This document shows, piece after piece, positions 1 to 13,466 of a DNA stretch of 13,466 nucleotides. Below the pieces are notes generated by a model. It was given only the letters and a program-made list of their open reading frames with translations, searched no databases and was not told the DNA's origin. Source of the DNA: a virus; the UHGV virus genome UHGV-0850785; one strand, written 5' to 3'. The stretch's first letter is position 1, and each line of letters opens with the position of its first letter. Made by a program: the position numbers and the translations under genes.

Positions 1-36
1 AAAATCCCCTTAGTTTTTAAGTGGGTTTTTGTATGA
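1..36 (+). CDS. 3' end (last 11 codons) of an upstream gene cut by the window edge; function unknown, by Mu gene order possibly the DNA-circulation/tail protein
   Basis: Frame 1 is open from position 1 to TGA at 34-36; this stop overlaps ATG 33-35 of the next gene (ATGA), the same coupling pattern seen elsewhere in this operon. Far too short to identify. Confidence 0.25.
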   Translation, partial: KIPLVFKWVFV

Positions 37-929
37 ATAGGAAAAAACTAAGGGTAACGATCACCCTGAACGGAAAAAACCAAAACGGTGAGCAAAAAGT
101 ATTCGAGAGCGAATACAATCAACTGTCATCGTCAGGGCTTCGGGTTTCTTGTACCATTGTTTCGGGCAATGGAAGTTTATCGCCTACTGCTAAAATTCAG
201 GTCTATGGATTGTCGCTAACTAAAATGCTTGCGCTTTTCCGTGTGCAGTGGAATACGCTAGATGCAATGCTAAATGAAGTTGCAATCGAAGCGGGCGAAG
301 AAGGCAAGCCGTTTGAGTTGATTTATAAGGGCAATATCACAACCGCAACAATTAATATGGAGTCCGCACCCGACCCATTTTTAGACATTGATAGCGTTGT
401 CGGATTGGTTGAGCAAATGAAGCCTGCTGAGCCTTTAGCTGTCATTAACGATGTTGACGTTGCGGAAGTGGTTAGAATTATCACTGTGGACAGGATGGGC
501 TATGAGTTCGAGAACAATGGCGTATCTCAAATTATCCCTGATGGTTTCATGTCTGAGGGTGCGAACCTAGAAACAATCCGACAGTTAGCGCATGATTATG
601 ATTTCGATTTATATATTGAGCATAAATTGATTGCCATCGCCCCACGAAACACTAAGCGCGAAATCACCATCCCTCAGATAACACCAAAAGGAGGTCTTGA
701 GGGCTACCCTACCCCCGATATTAAGGGTATATCGTTTAAATGCTTTTATACTCCCCTAGTTCGCTTCGGTGGAAACTTGGAAGTAAAAGATAGTATCATT
801 GAAGTCTGCAATGGTATATGGCGCGTCTACGGCTTGAAAACCATTCTTGAAAGTGGCGTTCCAAATGGGCGCTGGTCTATGGAAGTAAATGCAACTTGGG
901 CGAATAGTACCGATGCCGTTAGAAAATGA
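33..929 (+). CDS. probable baseplate hub protein (Mu gp44 / P2 gpD position)
   Basis: About 298 aa ORF immediately upstream of the gpV-W-J-I block. Function is inferred mainly from synteny, not a recognised motif. In-frame TAA at 18-20 bounds the ORF; the track start is GTG 21, but ATG 33 forms an ATGA overlap with the upstream frame, so I prefer 33. Confidence 0.55.
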   Translation: MNRKKLRVTITLNGKNQNGEQKVFESEYNQLSSSGLRVSCTIVSGNGSLSPTAKIQVYGLSLTKMLALFRVQWNTLDAMLNEVAIEAGEEGKPFELIYKGNITTATINMESAPDPFLDIDSVVGLVEQMKPAEPLAVINDVDVAEVVRIITVDRMGYEFENNGVSQIIPDGFMSEGANLETIRQLAHDYDFDLYIEHKLIAIAPRNTKREITIPQITPKGGLEGYPTPDIKGISFKCFYTPLVRFGGNLEVKDSIIEVCNGIWRVYGLKTILESGVPNGRWSMEVNATWANSTDAVRK

Positions 930-1554
930 TCAACAGACAACGAATTATAGAGCATCCCAGAGCGTTGGCGGTGCTGCTGAATTTGAAGCCATTGTGCGCT
1001 CACTGATGGGTAAGAATCACACCTTAATGTTGGGTGAGGTGATGGCTATCACTCAAGAAGCAAGCAGCACTGATGCGGTGGGCTATCTTTCCGTCCGTCC
1101 AATGGTTTTCATGATTGATGGTTCAAACAATAACTATGAACGTGCCACGATTACTAACGTGCCTTTCTTTCGATTGCAGGCGGGCGGTAATGCAGTCATT
1201 CTAAATCCAAAAGTGGGCGATATTGGTTTGATTGCTTATTGTGAACGTGACATTTCGATGGTGAAGCGCAGCAAGCAGCAAGCAGCGCCAAACTCTCGCA
1301 GGCAGTTTAATATCAATGATGCGGTGTACTTGGGCGGTATGCTGAACGGTGCGCCTACTCAATACATTCAGTTTCTTGACAGTGGCATGAACATTAAGAC
1401 GACTGGCGATGTAAACATTAACGGCTTAACGATTGCACCGAGTGGCATTTTAACGCTTGCAAATGGCGTTGTAGTCGATACGCATATTCACGACCAAGCA
1501 AACGACAGTGACGGAAACACAGAGCAACCAGTGGGGACACCAAGAAATGGCTAA
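889..1554 (+). CDS. baseplate assembly protein V / central spike (Mu gp45, P2 gpV family)
   Basis: 221 aa with an OB-fold-like motif (PKVGDIGLIAY) and a C-terminal His-x-His (THIH, 1483-1491) typical of spike apex metal sites. Sits between hub and W/J genes. Start is ambiguous: ATG 889 has a GGAAG only 3 nt upstream, and ATG 913 is an alternative. The gene overlaps the upstream stop by 41 or 17 nt. Confidence 0.7.
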   Translation: MQLGRIVPMPLENDQQTTNYRASQSVGGAAEFEAIVRSLMGKNHTLMLGEVMAITQEASSTDAVGYLSVRPMVFMIDGSNNNYERATITNVPFFRLQAGGNAVILNPKVGDIGLIAYCERDISMVKRSKQQAAPNSRRQFNINDAVYLGGMLNGAPTQYIQFLDSGMNIKTTGDVNINGLTIAPSGILTLANGVVVDTHIHDQANDSDGNTEQPVGTPRNG

Positions 1555-1903
1555 CACTCTTTTTTTACTTCCCGATACTTGGGACTTAACATTAGATTCA
1601 AGCGGAAATATTGCTATCGCTAGTGATGTTTATCAGCAAGCACAAGACATTGCTTCTGCTTGCCGTGTGTTTCGAGGTGACATGTATTTCGATAGTGCGG
1701 AAGGTATCCCCTACTCCGAGTCGATTCTAGGCAAATCGTCTTATCCACTCGGTCTATATCAGGCAGAATTACGCAAAGCAGCCCTATCGGTTGATGGCGT
1801 GGTTAGTGCTAATATAACATTCAATAAAATTGAAAATCGGGTGCTAAGCGGCATGATTAAATTTACAAATGATCAAGATCAGACAGGAGTTGTGAGCTTA
1901 TGA
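1547..1903 (+). CDS. small baseplate protein (gpW/gp25-like or Mu gp46-like)
   Basis: About 118 aa ORF between V and J. ATG 1547 overlaps the V stop (TAA 1552-1554) and the stop overlaps the J start (ATGA at 1900-1903). The track's GTG 1508 is a possible alternative start. Family assignment is by size and position only. Confidence 0.55.
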   Translation: MANTLFLLPDTWDLTLDSSGNIAIASDVYQQAQDIASACRVFRGDMYFDSAEGIPYSESILGKSSYPLGLYQAELRKAALSVDGVVSANITFNKIENRVLSGMIKFTNDQDQTGVVSL

Positions 1904-3090
1904 TTCCTGATATTGAAATCACAGAAAATGGGATTATTGCACCCACAACAGATGAAGTTCTCGCAGGGGTTTGGGAGGTTTTAAAGACCGCATTCGGTTC
2001 AAGTTTAAATACTGCAATGAATACCCCGCAAGGGCAGTTAGCAACATCAATTACAGCGATTATTCAGAATGAGCGAAACAATTGGATTCAATTAATGAAT
2101 CAGATTGACCCGCAGTATTCTACAGGAATTTGGCAAGATGCCATCGGTGAGCTGTACTTTATCACTCGCCAATCTCAAACGTATTCAATTGCTCAAATTC
2201 GATTGTACGGCTTGAATGGCACGGTAGTTCCGTCAGGCTATAAAATCAGTGACACGGCAGGGAATATTTGGGAAACGACAACACGGTTAATTATTGACAC
2301 GACTGGTTATATTGATGGTTATGTTCAGTGTACCGTTGCAGGGGCAATCAATGCAGCCATTGGCACAATTACAAGCATCATTGTGGCGCTCTCAGGTTTA
2401 GACCGTGCAACAAATACAAGCGCAGCCGTTGCAGGTGTCAATGCTGAAAGCACGGATAACTTCGAGCAGCGCAGACAAGAGTCGGTAGCAGTAAATGCAA
2501 AACTAACCGATGCTGCGGTACGTGGCGCTGTGGCAAATTTATCAAACGTGGTCGATGTTTGGGTGAAATCAAATCCAACCGATGCTACTGTCAATTTTGG
2601 CGTGACTAATTACCCAGTGACACGGAATACTTTGCTTTGTTCTGTCGTTGGCGGTGATGATGAAGATATTGCGTGGCAGATTTTAGTAAAAGCGGGAACT
2701 GGTTGCTCGTTCGCAGGGAATACGGAAGTCACTGTTTATGACAATGACACCTACACAGTAGACCCGCCTGATTATAAAGTGAAGTTTTTGCGTCCGACAT
2801 TAAAAACGGTTAAGTTTAAAATCACGCTTGAAAATAAAAACGAAATGTCACTGCAAGATGAAAAGGCAATGAAAACCGCCATTCTTAGTGCGCTAGAAAC
2901 AGGAAAAACGCGCGCTCGCATCGGTCAAAAGCTTAGGGCTTCGGCTTATGTTTACCCAGTTAGCAGTGCATCGGATTTAAGCTTGATTAGTGTTGAGGTA
3001 AGCTTCGATGGCACAACGTGGGCTAATTATTTAGAGTTGGGCGTTGATGAATACCCAGTAACTACTGAATTCGATATTGAGGTCGCATAA
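1900..3090 (+). CDS. baseplate J-like protein (Mu gp47 / P2 gpJ family)
   Basis: 396 aa, the size and operon position of baseplate wedge J proteins. ATGA overlap with the upstream gene and TAATG overlap with the downstream gene. Confidence 0.75.
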   Translation: MIPDIEITENGIIAPTTDEVLAGVWEVLKTAFGSSLNTAMNTPQGQLATSITAIIQNERNNWIQLMNQIDPQYSTGIWQDAIGELYFITRQSQTYSIAQIRLYGLNGTVVPSGYKISDTAGNIWETTTRLIIDTTGYIDGYVQCTVAGAINAAIGTITSIIVALSGLDRATNTSAAVAGVNAESTDNFEQRRQESVAVNAKLTDAAVRGAVANLSNVVDVWVKSNPTDATVNFGVTNYPVTRNTLLCSVVGGDDEDIAWQILVKAGTGCSFAGNTEVTVYDNDTYTVDPPDYKVKFLRPTLKTVKFKITLENKNEMSLQDEKAMKTAILSALETGKTRARIGQKLRASAYVYPVSSASDLSLISVEVSFDGTTWANYLELGVDEYPVTTEFDIEVA

Positions 3091-3728
3091 TGTTTGAAGT
3101 TAAAGATACGTTGATGTCGCAGTATGCAAATAGCCCTGCAATTGTCGGGATTATTGATGGAATAGCCGATGCACTAGACCCTAATGCCACCGTGGATGAA
3201 TTTTATTCATTGCTATGGAATCTAAGCACCGCAAAGACATGGGGCTTAGATATTTGGGGACGCATTGTTGGCATGAGTCGAAACGTGCAAATGAGCGACC
3301 CCGATGCCGTAACATTCGGTTTTAAAACTAACCCTGTGTCGCAAAACTTCACACCCTTTAATGTCGCACCGTTCAGCGCAAGCGGTGCAAAATTCAACAG
3401 TTATCGACTGCCTGATAACCTCTATAAAGAGCTAATCATTATCAAGGCAGCTTCAAATATTCTCTATGCAACTGCGCCCAATATTAATAAGTATCTTCAA
3501 ATGATTTTCAGTGAAAAGGCTTACTACTACATCACGGGTCACATGACAGCAGCTTATATATTTGAATTTGAATTAACCGCATTTCAGCGTTTAATTGTCT
3601 ATACTTTGAAGTTATTACCTGAGCCGTGCGGTGTGTTAATCTCTTATGAAGAAAGAGCAGTTTCGGAGATATTTGGATTCGATGGCACAGAATATGAAAC
3701 ATTTGATAACGGAGTATTTGTTCGATGA
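3090..3728 (+). CDS. tail protein I-like baseplate protein (Mu gp48 / P2 gpI position)
   Basis: 212 aa ORF directly after J and before the fiber. Coupled by TAATG (3088-3092) and ATGA (3725-3728) overlaps. Confidence 0.6.
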   Translation: MFEVKDTLMSQYANSPAIVGIIDGIADALDPNATVDEFYSLLWNLSTAKTWGLDIWGRIVGMSRNVQMSDPDAVTFGFKTNPVSQNFTPFNVAPFSASGAKFNSYRLPDNLYKELIIIKAASNILYATAPNINKYLQMIFSEKAYYYITGHMTAAYIFEFELTAFQRLIVYTLKLLPEPCGVLISYEERAVSEIFGFDGTEYETFDNGVFVR

Positions 3729-4441
3729 GCAATCCTGATGTTATGTGGGCAAAAGCATTTGCGTGGAATGCTACAAACAGAAATACGATTCAAGATGAGC
3801 GGCAATCGTCACAAGATGCACAAGATGCCACGCTCAATGAAGGCTTTCCGCTTATCACAATGACCGCCAAAAATGCAGGAGGTATCGCTCCGAACGGTCA
3901 AGATATGAACGGTGCGCTTTATGCGATTAGTTCAGACATGGTTCATCGCCAAAAAGGTCTACGAATCCAATTTGATTCTGCCTATGCGACAAAAATCGGA
4001 GGTTATGATCAAGGCTGTATTCTTGCGTCTAACGACTACACACGTGATTACATTAGCCTTATCCCGAACAATTTAACCGATCCAAACGGTAGCGGGACTG
4101 CGGGACGTTGGGCTATATATTCAGGCGCTGGCTCTATTGCTTCTGCAACTGCGAGCATTGCGGGCATTGTTAAGATTGTTGATAGTTTGTCGAGTACCGC
4201 AACGGATGCAGCATTAACTGCTAATCAAGGTAGAATTCTGAGTGGTCTCACACAGCCAGCTACCACTACAAATGTTGGTATTACTCGATTTGCAACTGCG
4301 ACAGAGGTGGCGAATAAGTCAACTACACAAGCAGCAATTACAGCAGCAAACGCCGCAACAGTAGCGCAAAGCACAGACCTTGGTAAACAGTTCCGCCGCA
4401 TTTTTAACCACTTCCTGATTGCTGGATCGGGATACTGCTGA
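3725..4441 (+). CDS. tail fiber protein, N-terminal (baseplate-attachment) region only; 3' end runs into the junction
   Basis: Follows the gpI-like gene, as the fiber does in Mu/P2. Contains the conserved fiber N-terminal motif pattern (GIVKIVDSLSSTATDAALTANQG ... GITRFATATEVANKSTTQAAIT). At 238 aa it is far shorter than typical fibers. The last ~20 codons (after ~4380) read as antisense of the convergent gene, and no fiber chaperone gene follows. Confidence 0.65.
   Translation: MSNPDVMWAKAFAWNATNRNTIQDERQSSQDAQDATLNEGFPLITMTAKNAGGIAPNGQDMNGALYAISSDMVHRQKGLRIQFDSAYATKIGGYDQGCILASNDYTRDYISLIPNNLTDPNGSGTAGRWAIYSGAGSIASATASIAGIVKIVDSLSSTATDAALTANQGRILSGLTQPATTTNVGITRFATATEVANKSTTQAAITAANAATVAQSTDLGKQFRRIFNHFLIAGSGYC
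4319..4441. other. breakpoint zone between the myovirus baseplate module and the podovirus structural module (best estimate ~4380)
   Basis: Convergent ORFs 3725..4441 (+) and 4319..6139 (-) overlap by 123 nt. Each ORF's terminal ~20 codons are the antisense reading of the other's protein-like sequence. Composition and strand polarity switch here. Confidence 0.5.
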
Positions 4442-6139
4442 AAGCTGCGTGATGACCTGCGAAGGCATTATGCCAGTCTGAGCCACAAGCCGAACAACCC
4501 CATCATGAGTGGAGGCATCATTAATACGAAAGTTCTGCGCCATTTCTGTGTAATCAGCAGCTTTCTGCATTGACTTGTTGCTTGGGTCTAATTTTTCACC
4601 TATTGTCAGCGCCTCATTGAATCTGCGTGAATCCCGTTGCGCCTGAATTGCTTCATTTGATCTCTGAAGCAATGCAGACAATTTTCCGTAAGCATCGAGT
4701 TTTAACGCATAGTGAGGATCGTTAACCTCAGGCTTCACTTTCTGCATTTCTTCTTGCTGCTGAGAAGGAGGCAAATACTGAATTGCCTGGAATATTCTCG
4801 CGTTATCAATCGCTATATCCAGTTGATTGATTATTTTATCTGCGTTTTTTCCATACCCCCTGATGATGGTCTCCTGAGCCGGTATATAATCTGGAACCTC
4901 ACCGTTATATAGCTGGGCCATGGTGTTATTAATAGCTGGCTCAAGCTGTTCTAATATTAACTTCCTTTGCTTTTCTATCTGACTATTAGCAAGGTTATCT
5001 ATTTGATAAATAGTCAGCGGATCCATTCCAGTTTTATTTTTTCTATATCGGGAAAGCCACCCTTGTGTTTCTGATGGAAGATTTCGGATAAATTCTTCTT
5101 CTGATATTTCACCTTTACGTGGATCACCGACTTTGGCGATCAGTTTATCCACGTTACCCATCCCCCAGTTATATGCTGCTCCGGTCAATATTTCGGAACC
5201 GTACTTACCATACAGTTGATTTACATAGTCACTGGCGAGCATTTCATGCTGTTGTTCGTCCGTAGGGTTGTATTCAACGCCACGCTTGGCCGCCAGTTCT
5301 TTTCCTGTGCCCGGCATTAACTGGTATTTCCCCTGGGCTCTCTCTCCAGAAGATGTTATCGGTCCCTCAAGAAGACTACCATCAGGATTAAAATGTCGAT
5401 CACCTGATTCAACAAGGCGTATGGCAAGCATGTCCATGCCTCCAGAATCATTTTTCTGAAACAGACCATTTAGCCATCCTTCTGGATTGGCAGCGGCATA
5501 ATTCTTCGCCCGCATTTCTGTGGCACTGCGATCATCACTTTCTATTTCTTCCAGAATGCGTTCTTGTGACCATCCCCTGGCAGCTCCATATCTGGCAATG
5601 GCTACCATTCTGGAATTTCTGGCTAAAGTGGCAGTTTGCGGGTCATTCCAGGCATCCGCTTCATTTTGTATCCATAATTTTCTCGTTGCCTGATATTGCT
5701 CATCTTCATAGGCATTTGTCTGCCCTATCTCATGTCTGAGAACTCCAGTACTGAACTGAATTTTCTGTGTTCTGGCTTGTTGCAAAAACATATTTCTTGC
5801 TGCTTCATCAGTCAATGAAGCAGCTATTTCTTCCACATCCTGATCAAATCCAGATATGTACTCTTGCCCCTTACCAATCGCATTTTTGCCTTGTTGTGCA
5901 TAAAAACCGGTTTGAGGGTTATAAAGACGTTCATTGCTGCGCTGATTAAGCTGAAGGATGGCATCCTGAGACAATGCAACATTCGCTTTCTGCCTGGCTT
6001 CACCATATGCCACCGCATACTGATCTGCGACATTCGCCAGCACCTGACCTGCTTGAGGAACATCGAAGGTCTGAAAACCACCGGTTTGCACACCACGACT
6101 TTGCACCTGGCGTCCGGATGTAGTAGGAACAACAGGCAT
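4319..6139 (-). CDS. internal virion protein with lytic transglycosylase (SLT) domain (T7 gp16-type ejection protein); C-terminal ~19 residues probably not native
   Basis: 606 aa. Residues ~240-330 carry the classic SLT signature (LVESGDRHFNP ... GKYQLMPGTG ... AAYNWGMGNV), with the putative catalytic Glu at residue 244 (coords ~5408-5410). Strong RBS GGAGG 6 nt upstream (6146-6150); ATG overlaps the stop of the upstream gene (ATGA). The terminal Cys-rich tail (VCALRYCCGVCCCNCCLCS, 4319-4378) is the antisense of GCA/GCT-rich fiber codons. Confidence 0.8.
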   Translation of the reverse strand: MPVVPTTSGRQVQSRGVQTGGFQTFDVPQAGQVLANVADQYAVAYGEARQKANVALSQDAILQLNQRSNERLYNPQTGFYAQQGKNAIGKGQEYISGFDQDVEEIAASLTDEAARNMFLQQARTQKIQFSTGVLRHEIGQTNAYEDEQYQATRKLWIQNEADAWNDPQTATLARNSRMVAIARYGAARGWSQERILEEIESDDRSATEMRAKNYAAANPEGWLNGLFQKNDSGGMDMLAIRLVESGDRHFNPDGSLLEGPITSSGERAQGKYQLMPGTGKELAAKRGVEYNPTDEQQHEMLASDYVNQLYGKYGSEILTGAAYNWGMGNVDKLIAKVGDPRKGEISEEEFIRNLPSETQGWLSRYRKNKTGMDPLTIYQIDNLANSQIEKQRKLILEQLEPAINNTMAQLYNGEVPDYIPAQETIIRGYGKNADKIINQLDIAIDNARIFQAIQYLPPSQQQEEMQKVKPEVNDPHYALKLDAYGKLSALLQRSNEAIQAQRDSRRFNEALTIGEKLDPSNKSMQKAADYTEMAQNFRINDASTHDGVVRLVAQTGIMPSQVITQLSAVSRSSNQEVVKNAAELFTKVCALRYCCGVCCCNCCLCS

Positions 6140-6714
6140 CAGTAACCTCCTATTTTGAATCGGGAGTCAGAATTCATAAAACCTGAGTTAGATAACATTG
6201 GCGTCCCACCACTAGATGTACTTCCTTTAGAGAACGGACTCCACGTCCCACCAAACATCTGGTACGCACCGTATGCCTTCAGAGGCGCAGTGAGCAATGT
6301 TGTTGCTGCTCCCACATTCCCCTGTTTACGGGCTGAACTGGCTTCTGCTTTATAGTTGGCAGCCTGAACCTGATAACCGTAAGCCTCGCGTTGCGCGTTA
6401 TTCACCGTCGTCAGCGAATCAAGAGCGCCAAACTGGGCAGTGTCGCCAAATATATCCAGCGCGTTACCTGTAGATAAATCAGCGCCGGTAGCCCCCATTG
6501 TCGCCGCCTGTGTACCAAGCCGCTGTCGGGTCTCTCTGCGCCGTTGCTCAGCTTCAGCGTTACCTCTGTTTATTGCATCATTTGCCTGAGCTGTGGCTAT
6601 ATCTGCGTTCGCTTCTGCAACCTTCGAGGCATACTTTCCCTGTTGGTACTGGGTGTATGCCTGAATGCCACTCATGGCGAGCATTGCGCCACCAGCAATA
6701 ACCGGATCGCACAT
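6139..6714 (-). CDS. putative internal virion protein (T7 gp14 position); Gly/Ala/Gln/Thr-rich
   Basis: 191 aa with a hydrophobic N-terminal segment (PVIAGGAMLAMSGIQAY) followed by a low-complexity region. GGAGA RBS 7 nt upstream; TAATG overlap with the upstream gene and ATGA overlap with the SLT gene. Function is from position only. Confidence 0.55.
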   Translation of the reverse strand: MCDPVIAGGAMLAMSGIQAYTQYQQGKYASKVAEANADIATAQANDAINRGNAEAEQRRRETRQRLGTQAATMGATGADLSTGNALDIFGDTAQFGALDSLTTVNNAQREAYGYQVQAANYKAEASSARKQGNVGAATTLLTAPLKAYGAYQMFGGTWSPFSKGSTSSGGTPMLSNSGFMNSDSRFKIGGY

Positions 6715-7178
6715 TATTTTCTCTCCATGTGAAATCTGTGGAAATTAAGACCAAGAGCACCATAAGGCGCGGCTTCTTCAAGCCTGAATCCAAGCCAGTG
6801 CAGCCATGCTTTGGCAACATGGTTTCGCTCGTCGACGTAGTTTTCCAGGCGCGGATAAACTGCCAGCATCTGCTGCAATACCGGGCGGCAGTGGCGCAGA
6901 AATGTCTTCTGATATTTTTCAATACGGCTGGTCCCGACCAGCCAGGGCGTACCATTGCCACCGATCATTGACGCCGGAGATACACCAAACATGGTTACCA
7001 GTTCTCTGTTCGCGAACCCTGACCAGGCCATAGTCGCAGTGCGCAGACCAACACGCAGCGCATCTTCGGTAGTCATCAGCGATACCGCATACAGTTCGTC
7101 AATATCAGCCTGACGAACATCCGGCAAAATCATCTGAAGATGCTCTTCGGTTGCGGGAATAATTTGAACATCGATCAT
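6714..7178 (-). CDS. hypothetical virion protein (T7 gp13 position)
   Basis: 154 aa ORF. ATGA overlap with the tail tubular B stop (7176-7180); GGGGGA 5 nt upstream. No motif I can name with confidence. Confidence 0.5.
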   Translation of the reverse strand: MIDVQIIPATEEHLQMILPDVRQADIDELYAVSLMTTEDALRVGLRTATMAWSGFANRELVTMFGVSPASMIGGNGTPWLVGTSRIEKYQKTFLRHCRPVLQQMLAVYPRLENYVDERNHVAKAWLHWLGFRLEEAAPYGALGLNFHRFHMERK

Positions 7179-9649
7179 CAGAATCCCCCAACAGTAAGGC
7201 GAGGAATAACGGCAAGAACAGACAGCGGCAACGGGTCAAGCTGACGGATTTTTACACGTCCGTTTTTGCCCCAGTTACTGTCCAGCTTCACTTCTACTTT
7301 TCCGGTAGCATCATCAACAGGATCATCGTAGAACTCGAATTCACGCTGTGGATATTCGTACCATTTACCGCCGGGCGTAGTCGCCCAGATGCCGCGACTG
7401 GCATTCACAACCAGAGTAACGGACGGGATCACCTGTTTTTTGTCCAGCAGCGTTTCCTGTCCGTTAATGTTGATATCCAACGTTTCGAATTCAGCAGTTA
7501 TTGGCAGGCCGATGTGCACAACAGCCCCCGGTGATTCCAGCGTGACGGCACCTCCGGAAACTACTTTCTGTGGTTCCACGTTCGCATCAGAGAGGATGTT
7601 TACGGTCTGACCTTCAAGATGAGACAAGCCTCCAAATGTCCGGAGCGCCATCTGCCAGTTCGTGGTGGCCACATTCCTGAGGGATGGCGGGACGTTCCTG
7701 TTAGCACGAACCACTACAGCGGTATTGCTGGTTACAGAAATAATGTCGCAACGTAATTCTTTTGACACTTCATCGCCAGTATCAGGATCAGTTCCGGTAT
7801 AAGGGAACTGTAGTTGCGCACCGACATCACTACTGGTGAAGTACGCACCACCAGAAACACTGATTGTATATTCCGCACGGTAATCCCATTCACCAGAACC
7901 ACCAGTGATGGTCATCGTTCTGTCAGACGTATTTCTTCCATCATAGCTAAGGCCAGAATCAACAAAGAAAGCATCTTCATCGCTGGTAAATAAACGGCTG
8001 GACAGTCTCTCGATGTATCTCACTGTTTGCCCGTTAACGGTTCGGTTAACGACGAAATACACCGCATCTTCATTGCCTTCGCTGATACTGCATGTGCTTT
8101 CATATTTTCCGGTACTGGATTGTGGTGCCCATGCAAAAACCTGCTGATCACGCAAATAGGTCATCACCAGTAATTTACCGTCATCACGAATGCAGAAGGC
8201 GCTGGAGTAAGGGACAATAGAGAAGCACCAGTCAACAATGCTGTGCTTCTGAAAAAGATGATTGGCAAGGATGGTCAGGTCGTTCCCCTGATAGCCGTCA
8301 ACATCGAATGAATAGGCCAGATCACGGACAACACTGCCTTTCTCCTGGACGAACAGAGCAATATTCGCCACGGCAATTGGTGGGACGTTGCTTGAGCCAT
8401 TTGATCCCTGAGAGCTGAATGCAAATGATGATGGGGTTAACACTTTGTTCTGGTCGCCGGTGATGACGTACTCACCTCCGGAAGTCAGCGCCACCAGCGA
8501 ACCAACATCAATCAGGTGGCGGATCTCATTAACCTGACGCCCGGCATAGGTGTAGATAATTCTGTCGTCATCCTGCGTAGGATTGCTTTTGCCAAAATCC
8601 TTATAATCCCCAGTACGGCTGGCCCAGATAGTCTGAGGGAACGCTGTCGATGCGGCGAAGTAAAGACGTTGTTGATAATAAACAACAGTGCCAGGATAAC
8701 CGTTAACACTATTCCAGGCATATTTAGCCCATTTATAGCTGGCATTATCCTCGCCAACTACCTGCGAAGGGATATAGGAAATCACCTCAGCAGTTGCAGT
8801 AGTTCCATTTGCAGCAGAGATACGGGCAATGCCAAAACCACTGTGCAGATACTCCCACTCAATGCCAGTATCATCATCACCGGATCCGCCCCAGCCATCC
8901 CATGATGTTCCTTCTGTATGCGAAGGGCGCAAAGTGCCTGTTTTGCCTGCTGTAACGGCGCGATAGTAGTTACTGTCTGCACGGCGAATATCGCCAATCG
9001 ATGTACTCTTACTTGTTTCCCATACCGGCACTGAATCCACTGCAGGCTGTTCCAGATAGAACAATTTGCCTACCTGCTCCGCGCCAAAAATAGAGGCGCT
9101 TGCCGTTAACGTAATTGTCCCGGTGCTGGCGCTGGCATAAACCGTCACTGACTCGTCAATATTGATATCTTCAAATGGACCGTTCTTCGTTACCACATCA
9201 ACCAGTTGCCAGTTGTCATGAGCATATCGGCGCAACTCTTTCGGCGGGTATGCAGGGTGAACCAGCGTAAGCACGTCGGCGCTTTGCGTGAATTTAATTC
9301 GGAACAGATCGGCTTCAGTATATGGCGTGGCAATTTCATAAATAACATTGCTGCTGTTCAGCACCAACGCACCATCTTTGATAACGCGCATGTACTGGTG
9401 TCCGAACTCCAGAGCATAAGTCTGAACCGTCGAGAACTGGAACGGGATCAGGCGGCATTTCCGATTTGGGTATTTGGCGGCACCGACAAAACGCGTACCA
9501 GGTCGATTCTCAACTCCGCCATACTGCCGCACGATAAAGTTATCGCACTTGCGCAATGCCACCTGGTACTTCGCCATGTCGATACGACCGTACAACGACG
9601 GTCCAATTTCACCACCGGCAAAGCTGGGCTGGATCCAACTGATAGCCAT
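7178..9649 (-). CDS. tail tubular protein B / nozzle (T7 gp12 family)
   Basis: 823 aa. N-terminus MAISWIQPSFAGGEIGPSLYGRIDMAKYQ ... ENRPGTRF matches the pattern I associate with gp12-like nozzle proteins. Size and position directly after a gp11-like gene fit; ATGA overlap at 9647-9651. Confidence 0.75.
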   Translation of the reverse strand: MAISWIQPSFAGGEIGPSLYGRIDMAKYQVALRKCDNFIVRQYGGVENRPGTRFVGAAKYPNRKCRLIPFQFSTVQTYALEFGHQYMRVIKDGALVLNSSNVIYEIATPYTEADLFRIKFTQSADVLTLVHPAYPPKELRRYAHDNWQLVDVVTKNGPFEDINIDESVTVYASASTGTITLTASASIFGAEQVGKLFYLEQPAVDSVPVWETSKSTSIGDIRRADSNYYRAVTAGKTGTLRPSHTEGTSWDGWGGSGDDDTGIEWEYLHSGFGIARISAANGTTATAEVISYIPSQVVGEDNASYKWAKYAWNSVNGYPGTVVYYQQRLYFAASTAFPQTIWASRTGDYKDFGKSNPTQDDDRIIYTYAGRQVNEIRHLIDVGSLVALTSGGEYVITGDQNKVLTPSSFAFSSQGSNGSSNVPPIAVANIALFVQEKGSVVRDLAYSFDVDGYQGNDLTILANHLFQKHSIVDWCFSIVPYSSAFCIRDDGKLLVMTYLRDQQVFAWAPQSSTGKYESTCSISEGNEDAVYFVVNRTVNGQTVRYIERLSSRLFTSDEDAFFVDSGLSYDGRNTSDRTMTITGGSGEWDYRAEYTISVSGGAYFTSSDVGAQLQFPYTGTDPDTGDEVSKELRCDIISVTSNTAVVVRANRNVPPSLRNVATTNWQMALRTFGGLSHLEGQTVNILSDANVEPQKVVSGGAVTLESPGAVVHIGLPITAEFETLDININGQETLLDKKQVIPSVTLVVNASRGIWATTPGGKWYEYPQREFEFYDDPVDDATGKVEVKLDSNWGKNGRVKIRQLDPLPLSVLAVIPRLTVGGF

Positions 9650-10254
9650 CAGGACAACCTCGCAATGGTAAACTCGTCAACCGGTGGCAGTGGTTCCTGT
9701 GATTCATTCTGGCTATGCGAGCCAGCACTAAGAATCACGCGATTGTACATATTGAGGGCAAACGTACCGAGGTCTGCATTCCCAGTCAGCGCCATGTTAA
9801 TAGCTGCCGCAAGACGCCAGGCCAACGCCTCCATAAAAATGGCATCAAACATGTTCACATCTGAAACGCGAGAGACATACTTGAGCCATGCCTGCGGCTG
9901 GTCTGTGTAGATCAACTTTCCTGTTCCGTTGGTGTCTGCACCAACTTCGTACTGAACGCGCATTGCTGCTGTTGGATTGCGTACACCAGGAAGCATAATT
10001 TCAGTAATGCGCAGACAATCTGACGGGTACTGATACGCATATTCCCAGTCAGGCGGTGGATTGCTCGTATCTGCAAGCGCCACGCGTTTGGTAGCAAAGT
10101 TCCAGTCAAAATCAGAAAGCACAGCATCACGGCAGGCCTCAAAGTGCAGCGAACATTCCCCCGCTTCCTTGCTGGCTTCCGTCAGGCTGTTAATGCTGCG
10201 GCTATTGCCAATATTGGACAGCGCACGATTGCAGATCTCTACTACAGAGGCCAT
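9649..10254 (-). CDS. tail tubular protein A / adaptor (T7 gp11 family)
   Basis: 201 aa, similar in size to T7 gp11 (~196 aa), immediately upstream of the gp12-like gene. TAATG overlap with the upstream gene at 10252-10256. Confidence 0.7.
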   Translation of the reverse strand: MASVVEICNRALSNIGNSRSINSLTEASKEAGECSLHFEACRDAVLSDFDWNFATKRVALADTSNPPPDWEYAYQYPSDCLRITEIMLPGVRNPTAAMRVQYEVGADTNGTGKLIYTDQPQAWLKYVSRVSDVNMFDAIFMEALAWRLAAAINMALTGNADLGTFALNMYNRVILSAGSHSQNESQEPLPPVDEFTIARLS

Positions 10255-10577
10255 TACTCACCCCCATTGCCGTACAGGGTTTCAGCCGCTGATTTTTCTA
10301 CATCCCCGGAAACAGGAGCGATCGCCATATCAGTGATCTGCAGATCGGCGCTGCGATTAACCCCATCGTCAGTTTCTCTGGCAGACAGGCCTCGAATAAC
10401 AGCCTTTGCAGTTATCATCACTTCTGTTCCGACGCCCTGAGGTTGCGCCTTCAGCTTATTCAATGTGTCGTTATTAAGAGTGATGCACAGCCCCCACGGG
10501 TATTCATCGCGAGTTCTGGTTTCTCCGCTCTCATCCTGGTAGCTGTCAGTGCCGGTTTTGAGGTTTACGAGTTCCAT
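10254..10577 (-). CDS. hypothetical small structural protein (~107 aa)
   Basis: ORF directly upstream of and overlapping the gp11-like gene. The track start GTG 10583 lies inside the AGGAG RBS (10583-10587); ATG at 10575-10577 has 5-nt spacing, so I prefer it. Confidence 0.5.
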   Translation of the reverse strand: MELVNLKTGTDSYQDESGETRTRDEYPWGLCITLNNDTLNKLKAQPQGVGTEVMITAKAVIRGLSARETDDGVNRSADLQITDMAIAPVSGDVEKSAAETLYGNGGE

Positions 10578-10594
10578 ATACACTCCTGCAATAA

Positions 10595-10610
10595 AGGGGC
10601 CGAAGCCCCT
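10595..10610 (-). terminator. intrinsic-terminator-like hairpin (6-bp G/C-rich stem, UUCG tetraloop) followed by UUUAUU
   Basis: Minus-strand sequence AGGGGC-TTCG-GCCCCT then TTATTG, in the 44-nt gap between the 111-aa and 107-aa genes. The downstream RBS follows immediately, suggesting an attenuator rather than a full stop. Confidence 0.5.
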
Positions 10611-10627
10611 TGTCTGATCCGCGAGGC

Positions 10628-10963
10628 TTACACGCCCAGTTCTTTACGCTTATCTGCGATCTTCTCGCGGAGCGTTTCGGCTTTGGCGTTATGGTGTGGC
10701 TTCTCGTTAAAGAGCAATTCGTACTCTTCACGGAGCTTATCCAGTTCACCATCATCTGACACATCGTTGATGATTTTGGTGCTGGTTGCTGCCATTGACA
10801 CCTTTCCTGCAATTTTTGCTTTTGCCTGTCTGGCTGCATCGTTAACAGGTTCCAGTGCGCTACCAGGCTCACCTTCGTATTCGATTTCTGCCCCCTCCGG
10901 CCACAGAGTGTTATGGATATGAGAGAGGCGCAGAACGCGGTATCTTGGTTTCTCACCTGACAT
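10628..10963 (-). CDS. hypothetical small head-associated protein (~111 aa), highly charged C-terminal helix
   Basis: ORF between the 145-aa gene and the hairpin. The track start GTG 10972 lies within the RBS AAGGTGA; ATG 10961-10963 has 5-nt spacing. C-terminus is Lys/Glu-rich (DKLREEYELLFNEK ... REKIADKRKELGV). Confidence 0.5.
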   Translation of the reverse strand: MSGEKPRYRVLRLSHIHNTLWPEGAEIEYEGEPGSALEPVNDAARQAKAKIAGKVSMAATSTKIINDVSDDGELDKLREEYELLFNEKPHHNAKAETLREKIADKRKELGV

Positions 10964-10973
10964 CGATATCACC

Positions 10974-11411
10974 TTAACCAGTTACTTTTGAGCGGATCGG
11001 ATACGGCGTATTGGCATCAACATCAAGACTGATACCAGCAGTGAATTCGCCAGCCGTTAGTGGGCCAGTTGCGACGGAGTAGTTAACACGCAGATATCGC
11101 TGAACACCGGCAGGCACCTTTGCAGAAACAACTCGTTTACCTGCTGTCAGGGCGGTCTTTGCCAGTGCGCCACTATCATAAATAGTGGTCCATGAGCTGT
11201 TATTCTCACTCGTCTGCAACTGGATGTTTACAGTTGCATCACCGCTTGCCGCGGCGGCTGTGTTAACCAGCGCCCAAAACTCAAGCGGGTAACCCACGCC
11301 GATATCACGACGTTTTCCGTCAATTGGACCGAGATCGATTACGTCAGTAGAAGCCGCGGTATTCGTAACCGCCTGAGCTTCGGAGAACATCAACAGTTTG
11401 TCGGTGATCAT
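10974..11411 (-). CDS. hypothetical protein, possible capsid decoration/accessory protein (145 aa)
   Basis: First gene after the major capsid gene, with a GGAG RBS 7 nt upstream. Thr/Ala/Ser/Val-rich composition suggests a beta-rich fold. Function is from position only. Confidence 0.5.
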   Translation of the reverse strand: MITDKLLMFSEAQAVTNTAASTDVIDLGPIDGKRRDIGVGYPLEFWALVNTAAAASGDATVNIQLQTSENNSSWTTIYDSGALAKTALTAGKRVVSAKVPAGVQRYLRVNYSVATGPLTAGEFTAGISLDVDANTPYPIRSKVTG

Positions 11412-11462
11412 CTTCTTTCTCCATTAGTGGGTCTGTTACGACCAACAGGTTAATAACAGGCG

Positions 11463-12455
11463 TTACACCACGCGGGCTTCTGTTTCCAGAAGCGCATCAG
11501 TTTCACGGATTGGTACACCACGGAATGAAGTCCACCACTCGCCTTCAGTCTCTTTTACGCTGATAGCCAGAGATGTTTTCTCCAGAGATTGCAGATCAAG
11601 AGCCTGGCCTACAGTGCGGTTCATGTAGAACACCGGGCGACCCATGCCACGGTTTGGAATGCGATGCAGTGCTTTAACCATCAACTTCGCAATATTTGCG
11701 GCAGAGGAAGGTTCTGAAAGATTGCTGACATCGATGTTTGCAATGCGAACAACATAACGCCAGTCACGCAGAGCAAGTCCGTTGTCCCATTTGTAATGGG
11801 TACGGTAGCCTTCGTACTTGCCGCCATTAACATCTTCCAGTGTCACCTGGCCTTTATCTTCCATCTGGATTCCAGCCTTCTGCCCTTTCGGGAAGATGCC
11901 ATGCACGGTGTTTTCGCCCCACACCACTAACCAGATTGAGGTGTTATCTGTACCCGTGCCACCAGCATCAATGATGTTCTGAGCATTACCCGCAGACAGG
12001 CTGGAATAGCGGGAGGACAGTCCCATAAACTGCTGAGGGTTAACGCTGGAATCACCATAAAACAACGTCTGCGCCATCTGCTGATTCATCGCTTCAATAA
12101 ATGCGCGGTCTTCAGACAGGCGGAATTCGGCGGTATTACCGTTCAGATCAGCCAGTGACTTATCGACTTCAGCATAGGTTTCCAGCATTCCAACGGAATC
12201 GGTGACCTGCACTGTGGTTGATTTGCTTGGCTGTACGCCATAGTTCAGCAAACGCCAGGTGGCTGAAGGTAAACCAGAACGAATGGTGGTTCGGTGTCCG
12301 GTAGGAAGGTTCCCTTCGACAAAAGGCATATCCTGAAGGATCGGGTTAGTTTGACCGAGAAGCTCGATAATCTTATCGACTTTCCCGTTTGGATCGACGC
12401 GCTTACCCCAGTCAGCCAGCGTTAGCGCAGTTAAGCCTTTAACAGCCATTGTCAT
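11463..12455 (-). CDS. major capsid protein
   Basis: 330 aa, directly downstream of the scaffold gene. The N-terminal region (LADWGKRVDPNG ... ILQDMPFVEGNLPTGH ... AFIEAMNQQMAQTLFYG) resembles podovirus major capsid proteins I recall. The second ATG (12447-12449) has better RBS spacing (GAGAGGA 8 nt upstream), so the true start may be 12449. Confidence 0.8.
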   Translation of the reverse strand: MTMAVKGLTALTLADWGKRVDPNGKVDKIIELLGQTNPILQDMPFVEGNLPTGHRTTIRSGLPSATWRLLNYGVQPSKSTTVQVTDSVGMLETYAEVDKSLADLNGNTAEFRLSEDRAFIEAMNQQMAQTLFYGDSSVNPQQFMGLSSRYSSLSAGNAQNIIDAGGTGTDNTSIWLVVWGENTVHGIFPKGQKAGIQMEDKGQVTLEDVNGGKYEGYRTHYKWDNGLALRDWRYVVRIANIDVSNLSEPSSAANIAKLMVKALHRIPNRGMGRPVFYMNRTVGQALDLQSLEKTSLAISVKETEGEWWTSFRGVPIRETDALLETEARVV

Positions 12456-12463
12456 TTCCTCTC

Positions 12464-13159
12464 TTATTTGCCATAGAGCACTTCGGCCGCACTACGCTGG
12501 CCTTCATTACCACCGGTGACCATGCCATCTTCAGACATCGCCTTTCCGATTTTCACGAACGTTTTGACCAGATCAGGGTGATTACCCAGCCCGGTGGTGT
12601 TCAGATATTCTTTGAGCTCAGGTGTCCCGAACTGGTCAAGCGCACGCTGTGCGGCGCTAAGGTTAGAAATCAACTTGTCGCCACCGATTTCTTTGTCAGC
12701 TTTTACATCCGCAGCCCACTGCTCGGTTGTTTTCTGCCAGGCTTCTGCCTGGCGCTGCTGAACACCTGCCAGAATCTTCGGATAAGCATCAACCAGCTTT
12801 TGCGCTTGCTCGTTGGTCAGGTTTAGTTCTCGAGCCACCGGCTCGAACTCCTTCAACGCTTCTGTATCCAGCTCTACGCCTTCGGCAGCCTGAAACTCGT
12901 ACTTCTCAGGCGCACCCTCTGGTTTATCGCCGTCCTTTTTTTCATCCTGCTTATCGTTTTCAGACTTTTTGTCATCAGCAGGTTTATCGCCATCAGCAAC
13001 AGGTTGTGGCTTATCACCTTCCTGTTGTGATGGATCACCAACTGGAGCAGGGTTATCACCTGCAGGCGCTGACGGTTCTGACGCAGCCGGAGCTGCTCCA
13101 CCATCGACTGGTTGCTCATTGCAAAGACGGCGATACAGCAAACGCTCAAATAAATTCAT
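12464..13159 (-). CDS. scaffolding protein
   Basis: ~231 aa immediately upstream of the capsid gene. Acidic Pro/Asp/Lys-rich low-complexity N-terminal half with GDKP repeats, then a helical region. The track start GTG 13165 sits in the AGGAG RBS; ATG 13157-13159 has 5-nt spacing. Confidence 0.7.
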   Translation of the reverse strand: MNLFERLLYRRLCNEQPVDGGAAPAASEPSAPAGDNPAPVGDPSQQEGDKPQPVADGDKPADDKKSENDKQDEKKDGDKPEGAPEKYEFQAAEGVELDTEALKEFEPVARELNLTNEQAQKLVDAYPKILAGVQQRQAEAWQKTTEQWAADVKADKEIGGDKLISNLSAAQRALDQFGTPELKEYLNTTGLGNHPDLVKTFVKIGKAMSEDGMVTGGNEGQRSAAEVLYGK

Positions 13160-13161
13160 GA

Positions 13162-13458
13162 TCACTCCTGTTCACTGGCCTCTTTGGCCATCTTCAAATA
13201 CTGTTCAGGGCAATGCGCCATAACGCGCTGAAACAGTTCCAGCGCCAGATTGCGTTGCCCCTCATTAAATGCCATTGCCATAGCGTCCATCGGTGAGATA
13301 GCGGAAAACACACGGCCTTTCTCCAGCACCGACCAGACAACGCGACGCCCCTGTTCACTGCTCATGACAAAGCGAATGTCATCAATTTCACGCTGCGCCA
13401 TGTCACGTTGCTTACGGGCGTTTTCTTCTTTCAGTTGATCGTCTTCGTAATCTGTCAT
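13162..13458 (-). CDS. hypothetical small acidic protein (98 aa) between the presumed portal gene and the scaffold gene
   Basis: ORF whose stop (TGA 13162-13164) lies in the scaffold RBS/spacer. Its ATG (13456-13458) overlaps a TGA (13455-13457) that would end a minus-strand gene entering from the right edge (ATGA). No recognisable motif. Confidence 0.5.
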   Translation of the reverse strand: MTDYEDDQLKEENARKQRDMAQREIDDIRFVMSSEQGRRVVWSVLEKGRVFSAISPMDAMAMAFNEGQRNLALELFQRVMAHCPEQYLKMAKEASEQE

Positions 13459-13466
13459 TGTGATTG

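What the first reader, a model, noticed from the sequence alone, without database searches (positions are those of the whole stretch)
1..13466. Abrupt compositional and polarity switch coinciding with the breakpoint
Hand-counted 60-nt lines give about 32-43% GC in the baseplate module (e.g. 1-60 about 32%, 3061-3120 about 37%, 4261-4320 about 43%) against about 50-55% in most of the podovirus module (e.g. 7201-7260 about 52%, 5941-6000 about 52%). Coding strand flips from + to - at the same place. Two modules with different nucleotide composition suggest different evolutionary, and possibly host, origins.
Basis: seen in the sequence. Interest (0 to 1): 0.4.

Follow-up and report, generated by a model that had tools for sequence, protein, structure and literature searches.

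The report
Chimeric join of two unrelated phages
The window is a blunt, mid-gene join of a fragment of an Acinetobacter-type phage and a fragment of an Escherichia phage, both found separately in one human-gut metagenome, so the strand flip is almost certainly a sequencing or assembly artefact, and the GC step lies 1.6 kb away, inside the Escherichia phage.

Summary
The coding strand flips from + to - at base 4384. GC does differ: 0.438 for 1-4383 against 0.507 for 6140-13466. But the two switches do not coincide. The best-fit GC change point is at about 5935 (support 5829-6264). The 1.76 kb just right of the breakpoint (4384-6139) has GC 0.448, no different from the left half.

The GC step belongs to the right-hand phage. 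An intact Escherichia albertii prophage, identical to the window but for 2 bases, shows the same drop at the same gene boundary.

The window is two pieces:
- Bases 1-4384 match contig CYGL01000279.1 with 1 mismatch. This is the baseplate module of a myovirus whose only cultured relatives are Acinetobacter phages.
- Bases 4384-11453 match contig CYGL01000890.1 with 1 mismatch. This is an epsilon15/phiV10-like Escherichia podovirus, and 4384-13466 matches an E. albertii prophage.

Both contigs belong to one human-gut metagenome assembly, and each continues natively past the break. The join shares a single base, cuts both flanking genes mid-ORF, and is absent from every collection searched.

The different origins are supported. 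A natural hybrid genome is not: this is most likely a chimeric contig. Interest is low.

The parts
1..4383 (+). Piece A: fragment of an Acinetobacter-type myovirus baseplate module. GC 0.438. Identical but for 1 base (position 22) to CYGL01000279.1 positions 256-4639.
   Evidence: PHROG and Pfam assignments. Only Acinetobacter phages match at DNA level.
33..929 (+). Baseplate hub gene (E217_GP41-like, phrog_196).
889..1554 (+). 221-aa baseplate-module protein with no PHROG match.
1547..1903 (+). Sheath initiator / gp25-like wedge protein (PF10934, phrog_120).
1900..3090 (+). Baseplate J protein (PF04865).
3090..3728 (+). Phage_Wedge1 / structural protein (PF11041, phrog_587).
3725..4441 (+). 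Truncated tail-fibre gene. The native protein is 308 aa in CYGL01000279.1. Only about the first 219 codons (to 4383) are native; the last 19 codons read the antisense of piece B.
4384..4384 (.). The junction. A single T is shared by both parents, so this is a blunt join with no homology. There is no repeat, terminator, tRNA or att-like sequence at the site.
4319..6139 (-). Truncated SLT-transglycosylase internal-virion (ejection) gene of the epsilon15-like phage. The native protein is 902-905 aa. Codons 1-585 (6139 down to 4385) are native; the last 21 codons read the antisense of piece A. The native part is a low-GC cassette (GC 0.448, GC3 0.385).
5829..6264 (.). Support interval of the real GC change point (best estimate 5935). 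It brackets the boundary at 6139 between the SLT gene and the gp14-like gene. It also contains the point (6233) where phiV10-type phages stop matching the window.
6139..13466 (-). Head-tail core of the epsilon15/phiV10-like (Uetakevirus-type) phage, GC 0.507. Genes, from 6139 upward: gp14-like internal virion protein, second internal virion protein, tail protein B (823 aa), tail protein A, gp10-like protein, 111-aa protein, Bbp16-like protein, major head protein, protease, Bbp19-like protein.

Best explanation
The window is a chimeric sequence, not one natural genome. Two DNA fragments from different phages present in the same human-gut metagenome sample were joined end to end, in opposite orientation, at base 4384. 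One is an Acinetobacter-type myovirus and the other an Escherichia epsilon15/phiV10-like podovirus. The join could have arisen in vitro, as a chimeric amplification or ligation product, or in silico, as a misjoin or as contigs concatenated without a spacer. The strand flip and the change of oligonucleotide signature at 4384 follow directly from that join. The separate GC step at about 5.9-6.2 kb is real biology of the Escherichia phage. Its ejection-protein cassette (the SLT gene and the genes after it) is a lower-GC mosaic module that replaces a roughly 50% GC allele found in phiV10-type relatives.

Shown: the two origins, the blunt mid-gene junction, its absence elsewhere, the co-occurrence of both parents in one assembly, and the native GC step.

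Inferred: that the join is artefactual, and by which route.
For: 1. Window 1-4384 matches CYGL01000279.1 with 1 mismatch. Window 4384-11453 matches CYGL01000890.1 with 1 mismatch. Both contigs belong to assembly GCA_001292545.1, and each continues natively beyond the break.
2. [quoted passage not shown] It therefore holds many phages side by side.
3. The right piece over its whole length (4384-13466) matches an Escherichia albertii contig with 2 mismatches. There the SLT gene is intact at 902 aa.
4. The parents share only 1 nt at the junction, and no other similarity between them exceeds chance-level matches of up to 17 nt.
5. Both flanking genes are cut mid-ORF: tail fibre 308 to about 219 native codons, SLT 902 to 585 native codons. 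Each then reads through into the antisense of the other piece.
6. The junction is absent from 5,426 complete E. coli genomes, where all 45 matching records start at window base 4384.
7. The junction 40-mer and 23-mer are absent from the IMG/VR and JGI metagenome collections, and the 40-mer from the GTDB species genomes.
8. The two chimeric ORF products are absent from the 153-billion-gene index.
9. As a control, the native sequence across the same point is in 15 IMG/VR contigs.
10. GC: the change point is at 5935, not 4384. The same drop from 0.52 to 0.45 at the gp14-like/SLT boundary is seen in intact prophages L004 and L007. phiV10 carries a different allele with GC 0.496.
Against: - No reads or coverage could be examined, so the artefact is inferred and not demonstrated.
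- A repeat-driven de Bruijn or overlap misassembly would need a shared k-mer at the join, and there is none. The artefact must therefore be a chimeric molecule or read, or a spacer-less concatenation, and I cannot say which.
- The window is not simply built from the two CYGL01 contigs. It extends 2 kb beyond the end of CYGL01000890.1 and has one private base in each half (positions 22 and 10362). Its exact source is unknown.
- That the sample was amplified by multiple displacement amplification before sequencing rests on my own recollection of the Malawian-twin virome study. The paper was not available.
Confidence: 0.88

Rival explanations
1. A real illegitimate (homology-free) recombination event in nature joined an Acinetobacter-type myophage fragment to an Escherichia epsilon15-like phage fragment, giving a defective hybrid or rearranged molecule that was packaged or present in the gut sample.
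For: Both parents co-occur in the same sample. Joins with 0-1 nt of microhomology are what non-homologous end joining or illegitimate recombination produces. Phage genomes are mosaic in general (established knowledge).
Against: - The inferred hosts belong to different orders.
- Both pieces are about 99.98% identical to their unjoined parents in the same assembly, so any such event would be extremely recent.
- Two essential structural genes are destroyed and face each other, so the product cannot be a working phage.
- The junction is unique among all collections searched.
- Natural mosaic joints normally fall at gene or domain boundaries and recur in relatives. This one does neither.
Confidence: 0.05
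2. Two prophages or prophage remnants lie side by side in one bacterial chromosome, with deletion between them, so the composition difference reflects two successive acquisitions by one host.
For: Tandem and decayed prophages with truncated genes are common in Enterobacteriaceae (established knowledge). The right half is a known temperate prophage type in E. coli and E. albertii.
Against: - The 484 bases of the left half that were tested (3900-4383) have no match in 5,426 complete E. coli genomes.
- Baseplate J has no relative in 185,579 species-representative genomes.
- The left half's relatives are Acinetobacter phages and phage-sized (about 42-48 kb) metagenomic contigs.
- In the one assembly that has both pieces they lie on different contigs, each continuing as intact phage sequence.
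Confidence: 0.03
3. The GC difference is just gene-to-gene noise or a strand-composition effect of the polarity flip, with no real compositional domains.
For: 60-nt lines have a standard deviation of 0.05-0.066, so single hand-counted lines are weak evidence. GC content, unlike skew, is not affected by strand.
Against: The whole-window change-point log-likelihood ratio is 33. A against C gives p = 3e-14 and B against C gives p = 4e-6. GC3, RSCU and tetranucleotide signatures all separate the segments when compared with non-overlapping native references.
Confidence: 0.02

Closest known systems
Chimeric contigs or reads in amplified viral metagenomes (multiple-displacement-amplification or ligation chimeras; contigs concatenated without a spacer)
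   Same: Two unrelated templates from one sample are joined bluntly with 0-1 nt of overlap, often in inverted orientation. Genes are truncated at the join. The junction is not reproducible elsewhere, and both parental continuations are present in the same sample.
   Different: Classical multiple-displacement-amplification chimeras are mostly intramolecular inversions (my own knowledge). Here the two arms come from different genomes. No read-level data were available to show the mechanism.
Escherichia phage TL-2011b and phiV10 / Salmonella phage epsilon15 (Uetakevirus-type temperate podoviruses)
   Same: Window 4384-13466 has the same gene order, running from the window's right end towards the junction: Bbp19-like, protease, major head, Bbp16-like, gp10-like, tail A, tail B, two internal virion proteins, SLT ejection protein. 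Identity to TL-2011b is 98.3-98.9% nt. It has the same internal GC drop at the SLT cassette as TL-2011b-type prophages.
   Different: The SLT gene is cut at codon 585 of about 902-905. phiV10 itself matches only from window base 6233 onward and carries a different, roughly 50% GC allele at that position (p18, 49% aa identity over the N-terminal 207 aa).
Acinetobacter myoviruses (phage Acjo_20 of A. johnsonii; more distantly Obolenskvirus AB1, AbP2, phiAC-1)
   Same: Same baseplate gene order: hub, 221-aa protein, sheath initiator, baseplate J, wedge1, tail fibre. These are the only cultured phages with DNA-level similarity, 81 of 81 records.
   Different: Identity is only 66.5% nt over 60% of the piece, and 65.8% aa for J against Acjo_20 (41-45% against Obolenskvirus). 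GC is 0.41-0.44 against 0.37-0.38 for Obolenskvirus (PMC10888812 table). It is therefore a different, uncultured lineage, and its host is inferred, not shown.
Mosaic module replacement in temperate phages (GC-deviant cassettes)
   Same: The true GC step (5829-6264) brackets a gene boundary, with alternative alleles in related phages. GC, GC3 and codon usage there are distinct from the head-tail core.
   Different: This concerns the step inside the Escherichia phage, not the junction at 4384 that the finding describes.

Membership tests
Artefactual chimeric contig | Each side matches a different natural sequence that continues uninterrupted past the breakpoint. | tested here: met
   L002 continues past 4639. 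L005 and L004 continue past the break with an intact SLT gene.
Artefactual chimeric contig | Both parental sequences are present in the same sample. | tested here: met
   CYGL01000279.1 and CYGL01000890.1 are both in GCA_001292545.1, a human gut metagenome assembly.
Artefactual chimeric contig | The junction is not reproducible in independent data. | tested here: met
   Absent from complete E. coli genomes and from the gene index. The junction 40-mer and 23-mer are absent from IMG/VR and JGI metagenomes, and the 40-mer from GTDB species genomes. The native control was found 15 times.
Artefactual chimeric contig | Junction-spanning reads are missing or anomalous (coverage drop, clipped reads). 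| not testable with these tools
   No read data are accessible.
Natural phage mosaic joint | The joint lies at a gene or domain boundary and leaves the ORFs intact. | tested here: not met
   Both flanking genes are truncated mid-ORF, with 19- and 21-codon antisense read-through tails.
Natural phage mosaic joint | The recombinant arrangement recurs in related genomes. | tested here: not met
   No second occurrence in any collection.
Uetakevirus-type (epsilon15/phiV10-like) phage, right half | High nucleotide identity and collinear structural gene order with members. | tested here: met
   98.3-98.9% to TL-2011b over 4384-13466 and 98.5% to phiV10 over 6233-13466, with collinear genes.
Obolenskvirus (genus), left half | At least 70% nucleotide identity over the genome to members (ICTV genus criterion, established knowledge). 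| tested here: not met
   Only 17-27% of the piece aligns, at 67-72% identity, to Obolenskvirus phages. The best hit of any kind is Acjo_20 at 66.5% over 60%. The piece is related but not a member. Only a 4.4-kb fragment could be judged.
GC-deviant mosaic cassette within a phage (step at about 5.9-6.2 kb) | The composition step is present in intact relatives at the same gene boundary, with alternative alleles in other relatives. | tested here: met
   In L004, gp14-like is 0.521, SLT 0.452 and the 1007-aa gene 0.463. L007 is similar. phiV10 p18 is 0.496 and only 49% identical over the N-terminus.

The most novel reading that the evidence does not exclude
The junction is real. It would be a recent homology-free recombination between an Acinetobacter-type myophage and an Escherichia epsilon15-like podophage, captured in virus-like-particle DNA from a child's gut. 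That would be direct evidence of DNA exchange between phages of hosts from different bacterial orders.
Probability: 0.04. Interest if true: 0.6.

Novelty: not a real feature. Interest (0 to 1): 0.08.

Why it matters
As biology it matters little. The hybrid of baseplate module and podovirus module is almost certainly not a genome that exists. The genuine GC step is an ordinary mosaic cassette in a well-known prophage family.

It matters as quality control in three ways:
- The window should be flagged as chimeric, so that its two junction ORFs (238 aa and 606 aa) and any 'myovirus-podovirus hybrid' reading are not propagated.
- %GC alone missed the true junction. The two sides happen to have the same GC there, and the tetranucleotide signature and direct matching located it.
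- A GC step is not by itself evidence of a breakpoint.

If the junction were real, it would be a rare captured case of recombination between phages of different host orders.

Tried and rejected
- I looked for the junction as an exact 40-mer and 23-mer in IMG/VR and JGI metagenomes, and as a 40-mer in GTDB species genomes. Nothing was found.
- I looked up both chimeric ORF products in the gene-position index. Neither is on record.
- I searched 185,579 species-representative genomes for a relative of baseplate J to name the left half's host. No confirmed hit.
- The protein homologue search for J gave almost only unnamed metagenomic proteins, so host assignment rests on cultured-phage matches.
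- I searched for repeats, inverted repeats, tRNAs, terminators and promoters at the junction, as signs of integration, transposition or a natural convergent gene end. Nothing exceeded chance.
- I looked for shared k-mers between the two parents that could explain a graph misassembly. The longest is 17 nt and lies elsewhere, so that route is rejected.
- I tried to read Reyes et al. 2015 (PNAS), the Malawian-twin virome paper, for the amplification and sequencing methods. It is not held. Run and assembly accessions gave no paper except PMC10888812.
- I considered adjacent prophages in one chromosome and rejected it (see rivals).
- A second GC change point was tested and adds only 0.8 lnL units.
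Full report
**1. What the sequence shows**

The sliding-window profile gives GC of about 0.40-0.48 up to about 6000 and about 0.49-0.53 from about 6000 to the end. GC skew is positive up to about 4250 and negative afterwards.

All long ORFs left of about 4400 are on the + strand and all to the right are on the - strand. Two ORFs, 3725-4441 (+) and 4319-6139 (-), overlap by 123 nt.

But the left-hand lines were drawn from the low tail of a distribution whose mean is 0.437.

**2. The two switches are 1.6 kb apart**

| Segment | Coordinates | GC |
|---|---|---|
| A | 1-4383 | 0.438 |
| B | 4384-6139 | 0.448 |
| C | 6140-13466 | 0.507 |

- The maximum-likelihood GC change point is 5935, with a 2-lnL support interval of 5829-6264. 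The log-likelihood ratio is 33.1 there and 20.2 at 4383. A second change point adds only 0.8.
- On 60-nt lines, A against B is not significant (p = 0.70). B against C gives p = 4e-6 and A against C gives p = 3e-14.
- GC3 is 0.33-0.46 for the A genes, 0.385 for B and 0.47-0.56 for the C genes.

So %GC does not change at the polarity switch. What changes there is the GC-normalised tetranucleotide signature, measured against references that do not overlap the window:
- 1.5-kb windows left of the join correlate at 0.66-0.78 with the rest of the Acinetobacter-type contig, and at 0.36-0.48 with the Escherichia-phage references.
- Windows right of the join correlate at 0.19-0.46 and 0.58-0.76 respectively.

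Codon usage (RSCU) gives three classes:
- A correlates at 0.86 with the rest of its contig.
- C correlates at 0.74 with the terminase and portal genes of the Escherichia prophage.
- B correlates at 0.68 with the gene that natively follows it, but only at 0.28 with A and 0.37 with C.

**3. What the two pieces are**

Left piece, on the + strand: baseplate hub (E217_GP41-like), a 221-aa protein, sheath initiator, baseplate J, Phage_Wedge1 and a tail fibre.
- At DNA level it matches only Acinetobacter phages, 81 of 81 records. The best is A. johnsonii phage Acjo_20, at 66.5% nt over 60% of the piece.
- Baseplate J is 65.8% identical to Acjo_20 and 41-45% identical to Obolenskvirus-type phages.
- Other homologues are unnamed metagenomic proteins, many on phage-sized contigs of about 42-48 kb.
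- There is no relative of baseplate J in the GTDB species representatives, and window 3900-4383 has no match in complete E. coli genomes.

Right piece, on the - strand: the structural core of an epsilon15/phiV10-like temperate podovirus. Listed from the window's right end towards the junction, the genes are Bbp19-like, protease, major head protein, Bbp16-like, gp10-like, tail proteins A and B, two internal virion proteins and an SLT-transglycosylase ejection protein.
- It is 98.3-98.9% identical to Escherichia phage TL-2011b.
- It is 98.5% identical to phiV10-type phages, but only from window base 6233 onward.
- It differs by 2 bases in 9083 from Escherichia albertii contig AASIJY010000045.1.

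**4. The junction**

Window 1-4384 equals CYGL01000279.1 positions 256-4639 with one mismatch, at position 22. Window 4384-11453 equals the reverse complement of CYGL01000890.1 positions 1-7070 with one mismatch, at position 10362.

Aligning the window with both parents shows a single shared T at 4384. To the right the Acinetobacter-type contig continues with its own sequence, and to the left the Escherichia-phage contig continues with its own.

Both genes are cut mid-ORF:
- The tail fibre is 308 aa natively. About 219 native codons remain, followed by 19 codons of antisense read-through.
- The SLT protein is 902-905 aa natively. 585 native codons remain, followed by 21 codons of read-through ending ...CCGVCCCNCCLCS.

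There is no repeat, palindrome, tRNA, terminator or other site at the join. The two parents share nothing longer than a 17-mer, and that lies elsewhere.

**5. Provenance and uniqueness**

Both best matches lie in a single assembly, GCA_001292545.1. [quoted passage not shown] The sample therefore holds Acinetobacter-type and Escherichia phages side by side.

I read 'HumMal, Ma_F259' as the Malawian-twin gut virome study (Reyes et al. 2015). I recall that it used multiple displacement amplification. Both the identification and the recollection are my own knowledge, and I could not check them because the paper is not held.

A 1-nt deletion in an A6 run splits the SLT gene in CYGL01000890.1, outside the window. 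This shows that this assembly contains homopolymer-type sequencing errors.

The chimeric junction was not found in any of these:
- 5,426 complete E. coli genomes, where all 45 matching records begin exactly at window base 4384;
- IMG/VR and JGI metagenomes (40-mer and 23-mer) and GTDB species genomes (40-mer);
- the gene index, searched with both chimeric products.

As a positive control, the native Escherichia-phage sequence across the same point is in 15 IMG/VR contigs. The native left continuation is not in IMG/VR, in keeping with the rarity of that phage.

**6. Explanation of the junction**

The most economical reading is a chimeric record. Its features are:
- two co-occurring templates joined bluntly in opposite orientation;
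- two essential genes destroyed;
- both unjoined parents present at about 99.98% identity in the same sample;
- no second occurrence anywhere.

Because there is no shared k-mer, a repeat-induced graph misassembly is unlikely. A chimeric molecule or read from amplification or ligation, or contigs concatenated without a spacer, fits better. I cannot tell these apart without reads or the record's history.

A real illegitimate recombination cannot be excluded. It would have to be very recent, join phages of hosts from different orders, and yield a non-functional product. I put it at about 5%.

**7. Explanation of the GC step**

The step is native to the Escherichia phage.
- In the intact E. albertii prophage, GC falls from 0.521 (gp14-like gene) to 0.452 (SLT gene, 902 aa). 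It stays low through the next gene (1007 aa, 0.463) and a 175-aa gene (0.352).
- An E. coli prophage (L007) shows the same pattern.
- phiV10 and L013 carry a different gene in that position: 837 aa, GC 0.49-0.50, and about 48-49% identity to the window's allele over only the first 207-219 residues. DNA matches of phiV10-type phages to the window stop at 6233.

It coincides with neither the polarity switch nor the junction.

**8. Verdict**

The strand flip and the GC difference are real, but they do not coincide, and the quoted GC contrast is exaggerated.
The different origins and probable hosts are right. GC was not the valid evidence, and the two modules do not belong to one natural genome.
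- Novelty: not a real biological feature.
- Interest: low, apart from flagging the record as chimeric.

Noticed in passing
window 5829-6264 (gene boundary at 6139); L004 13392-19672: TL-2011b-type Escherichia prophages carry a lower-GC ejection-protein cassette: SLT gene 0.45, next gene of about 1000 aa 0.46, then a 175-aa gene 0.35. Its codon usage is distinct from the head-tail core. phiV10-type relatives have a different allele of about 50% GC. This is a natural mosaic replacement whose donor is unknown.
   Followed up: partly
window 22 and 10362 (also 5334): Each half has one base found in neither parental match. Position 22 is T where L002 has G, inside a G5 run and intergenic. Position 10362 is C where L004 and L005 have A, a synonymous Gly72 change in the gp10-like gene. 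Position 5334 agrees with the metagenome contig L005 and differs from E. albertii L004 (Gln269 against Arg). The window is therefore closest to the gut-metagenome sample but is not built from its deposited contigs.
   Followed up: partly
L005 7583 (CYGL01000890.1), outside the window: A 1-nt deletion in an A6 homopolymer splits the SLT gene into 783 + 121 aa in the metagenome contig, relative to the intact 902-aa gene of L004. This looks like a homopolymer sequencing error.
   Followed up: partly
window 4319-4441: The 123-nt overlap of the two convergent ORFs is a by-product of the join. Each frame runs on into the antisense of the other piece until the first stop. On the minus-strand ORF this gives a Cys-rich 21-residue tail, which should not be read as a real domain.
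   Followed up: yes
window 889-1554: The 221-aa baseplate-module protein has no PHROG match and only a weak Pfam N-terminal hit. Yet it belongs to a 90%-identity cluster of 310 members from many metagenomes. The neighbouring J and wedge1 proteins have clusters of only 2 members. It is a much more conserved or more widely shared gene than its neighbours.
   Followed up: no
window 4501-6000, 10251-11000, 12501-13000: There is strong negative AT skew on the + strand (-0.17 to -0.29) in the SLT gene and in two stretches of the head-module genes. Their coding strands are therefore markedly A-rich over T. This was not examined further.
   Followed up: no
L014 12255-13468 and L015 7562-8775 (E. coli prophages related to the right half): In two E. 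coli genomes an IS3-family transposase (HTH_Tnp_1/rve domains) interrupts this prophage type, once inside the SLT gene and once inside tail protein B. These are real examples of how these genes get truncated in nature, and they look unlike the junction in the window.
   Followed up: no
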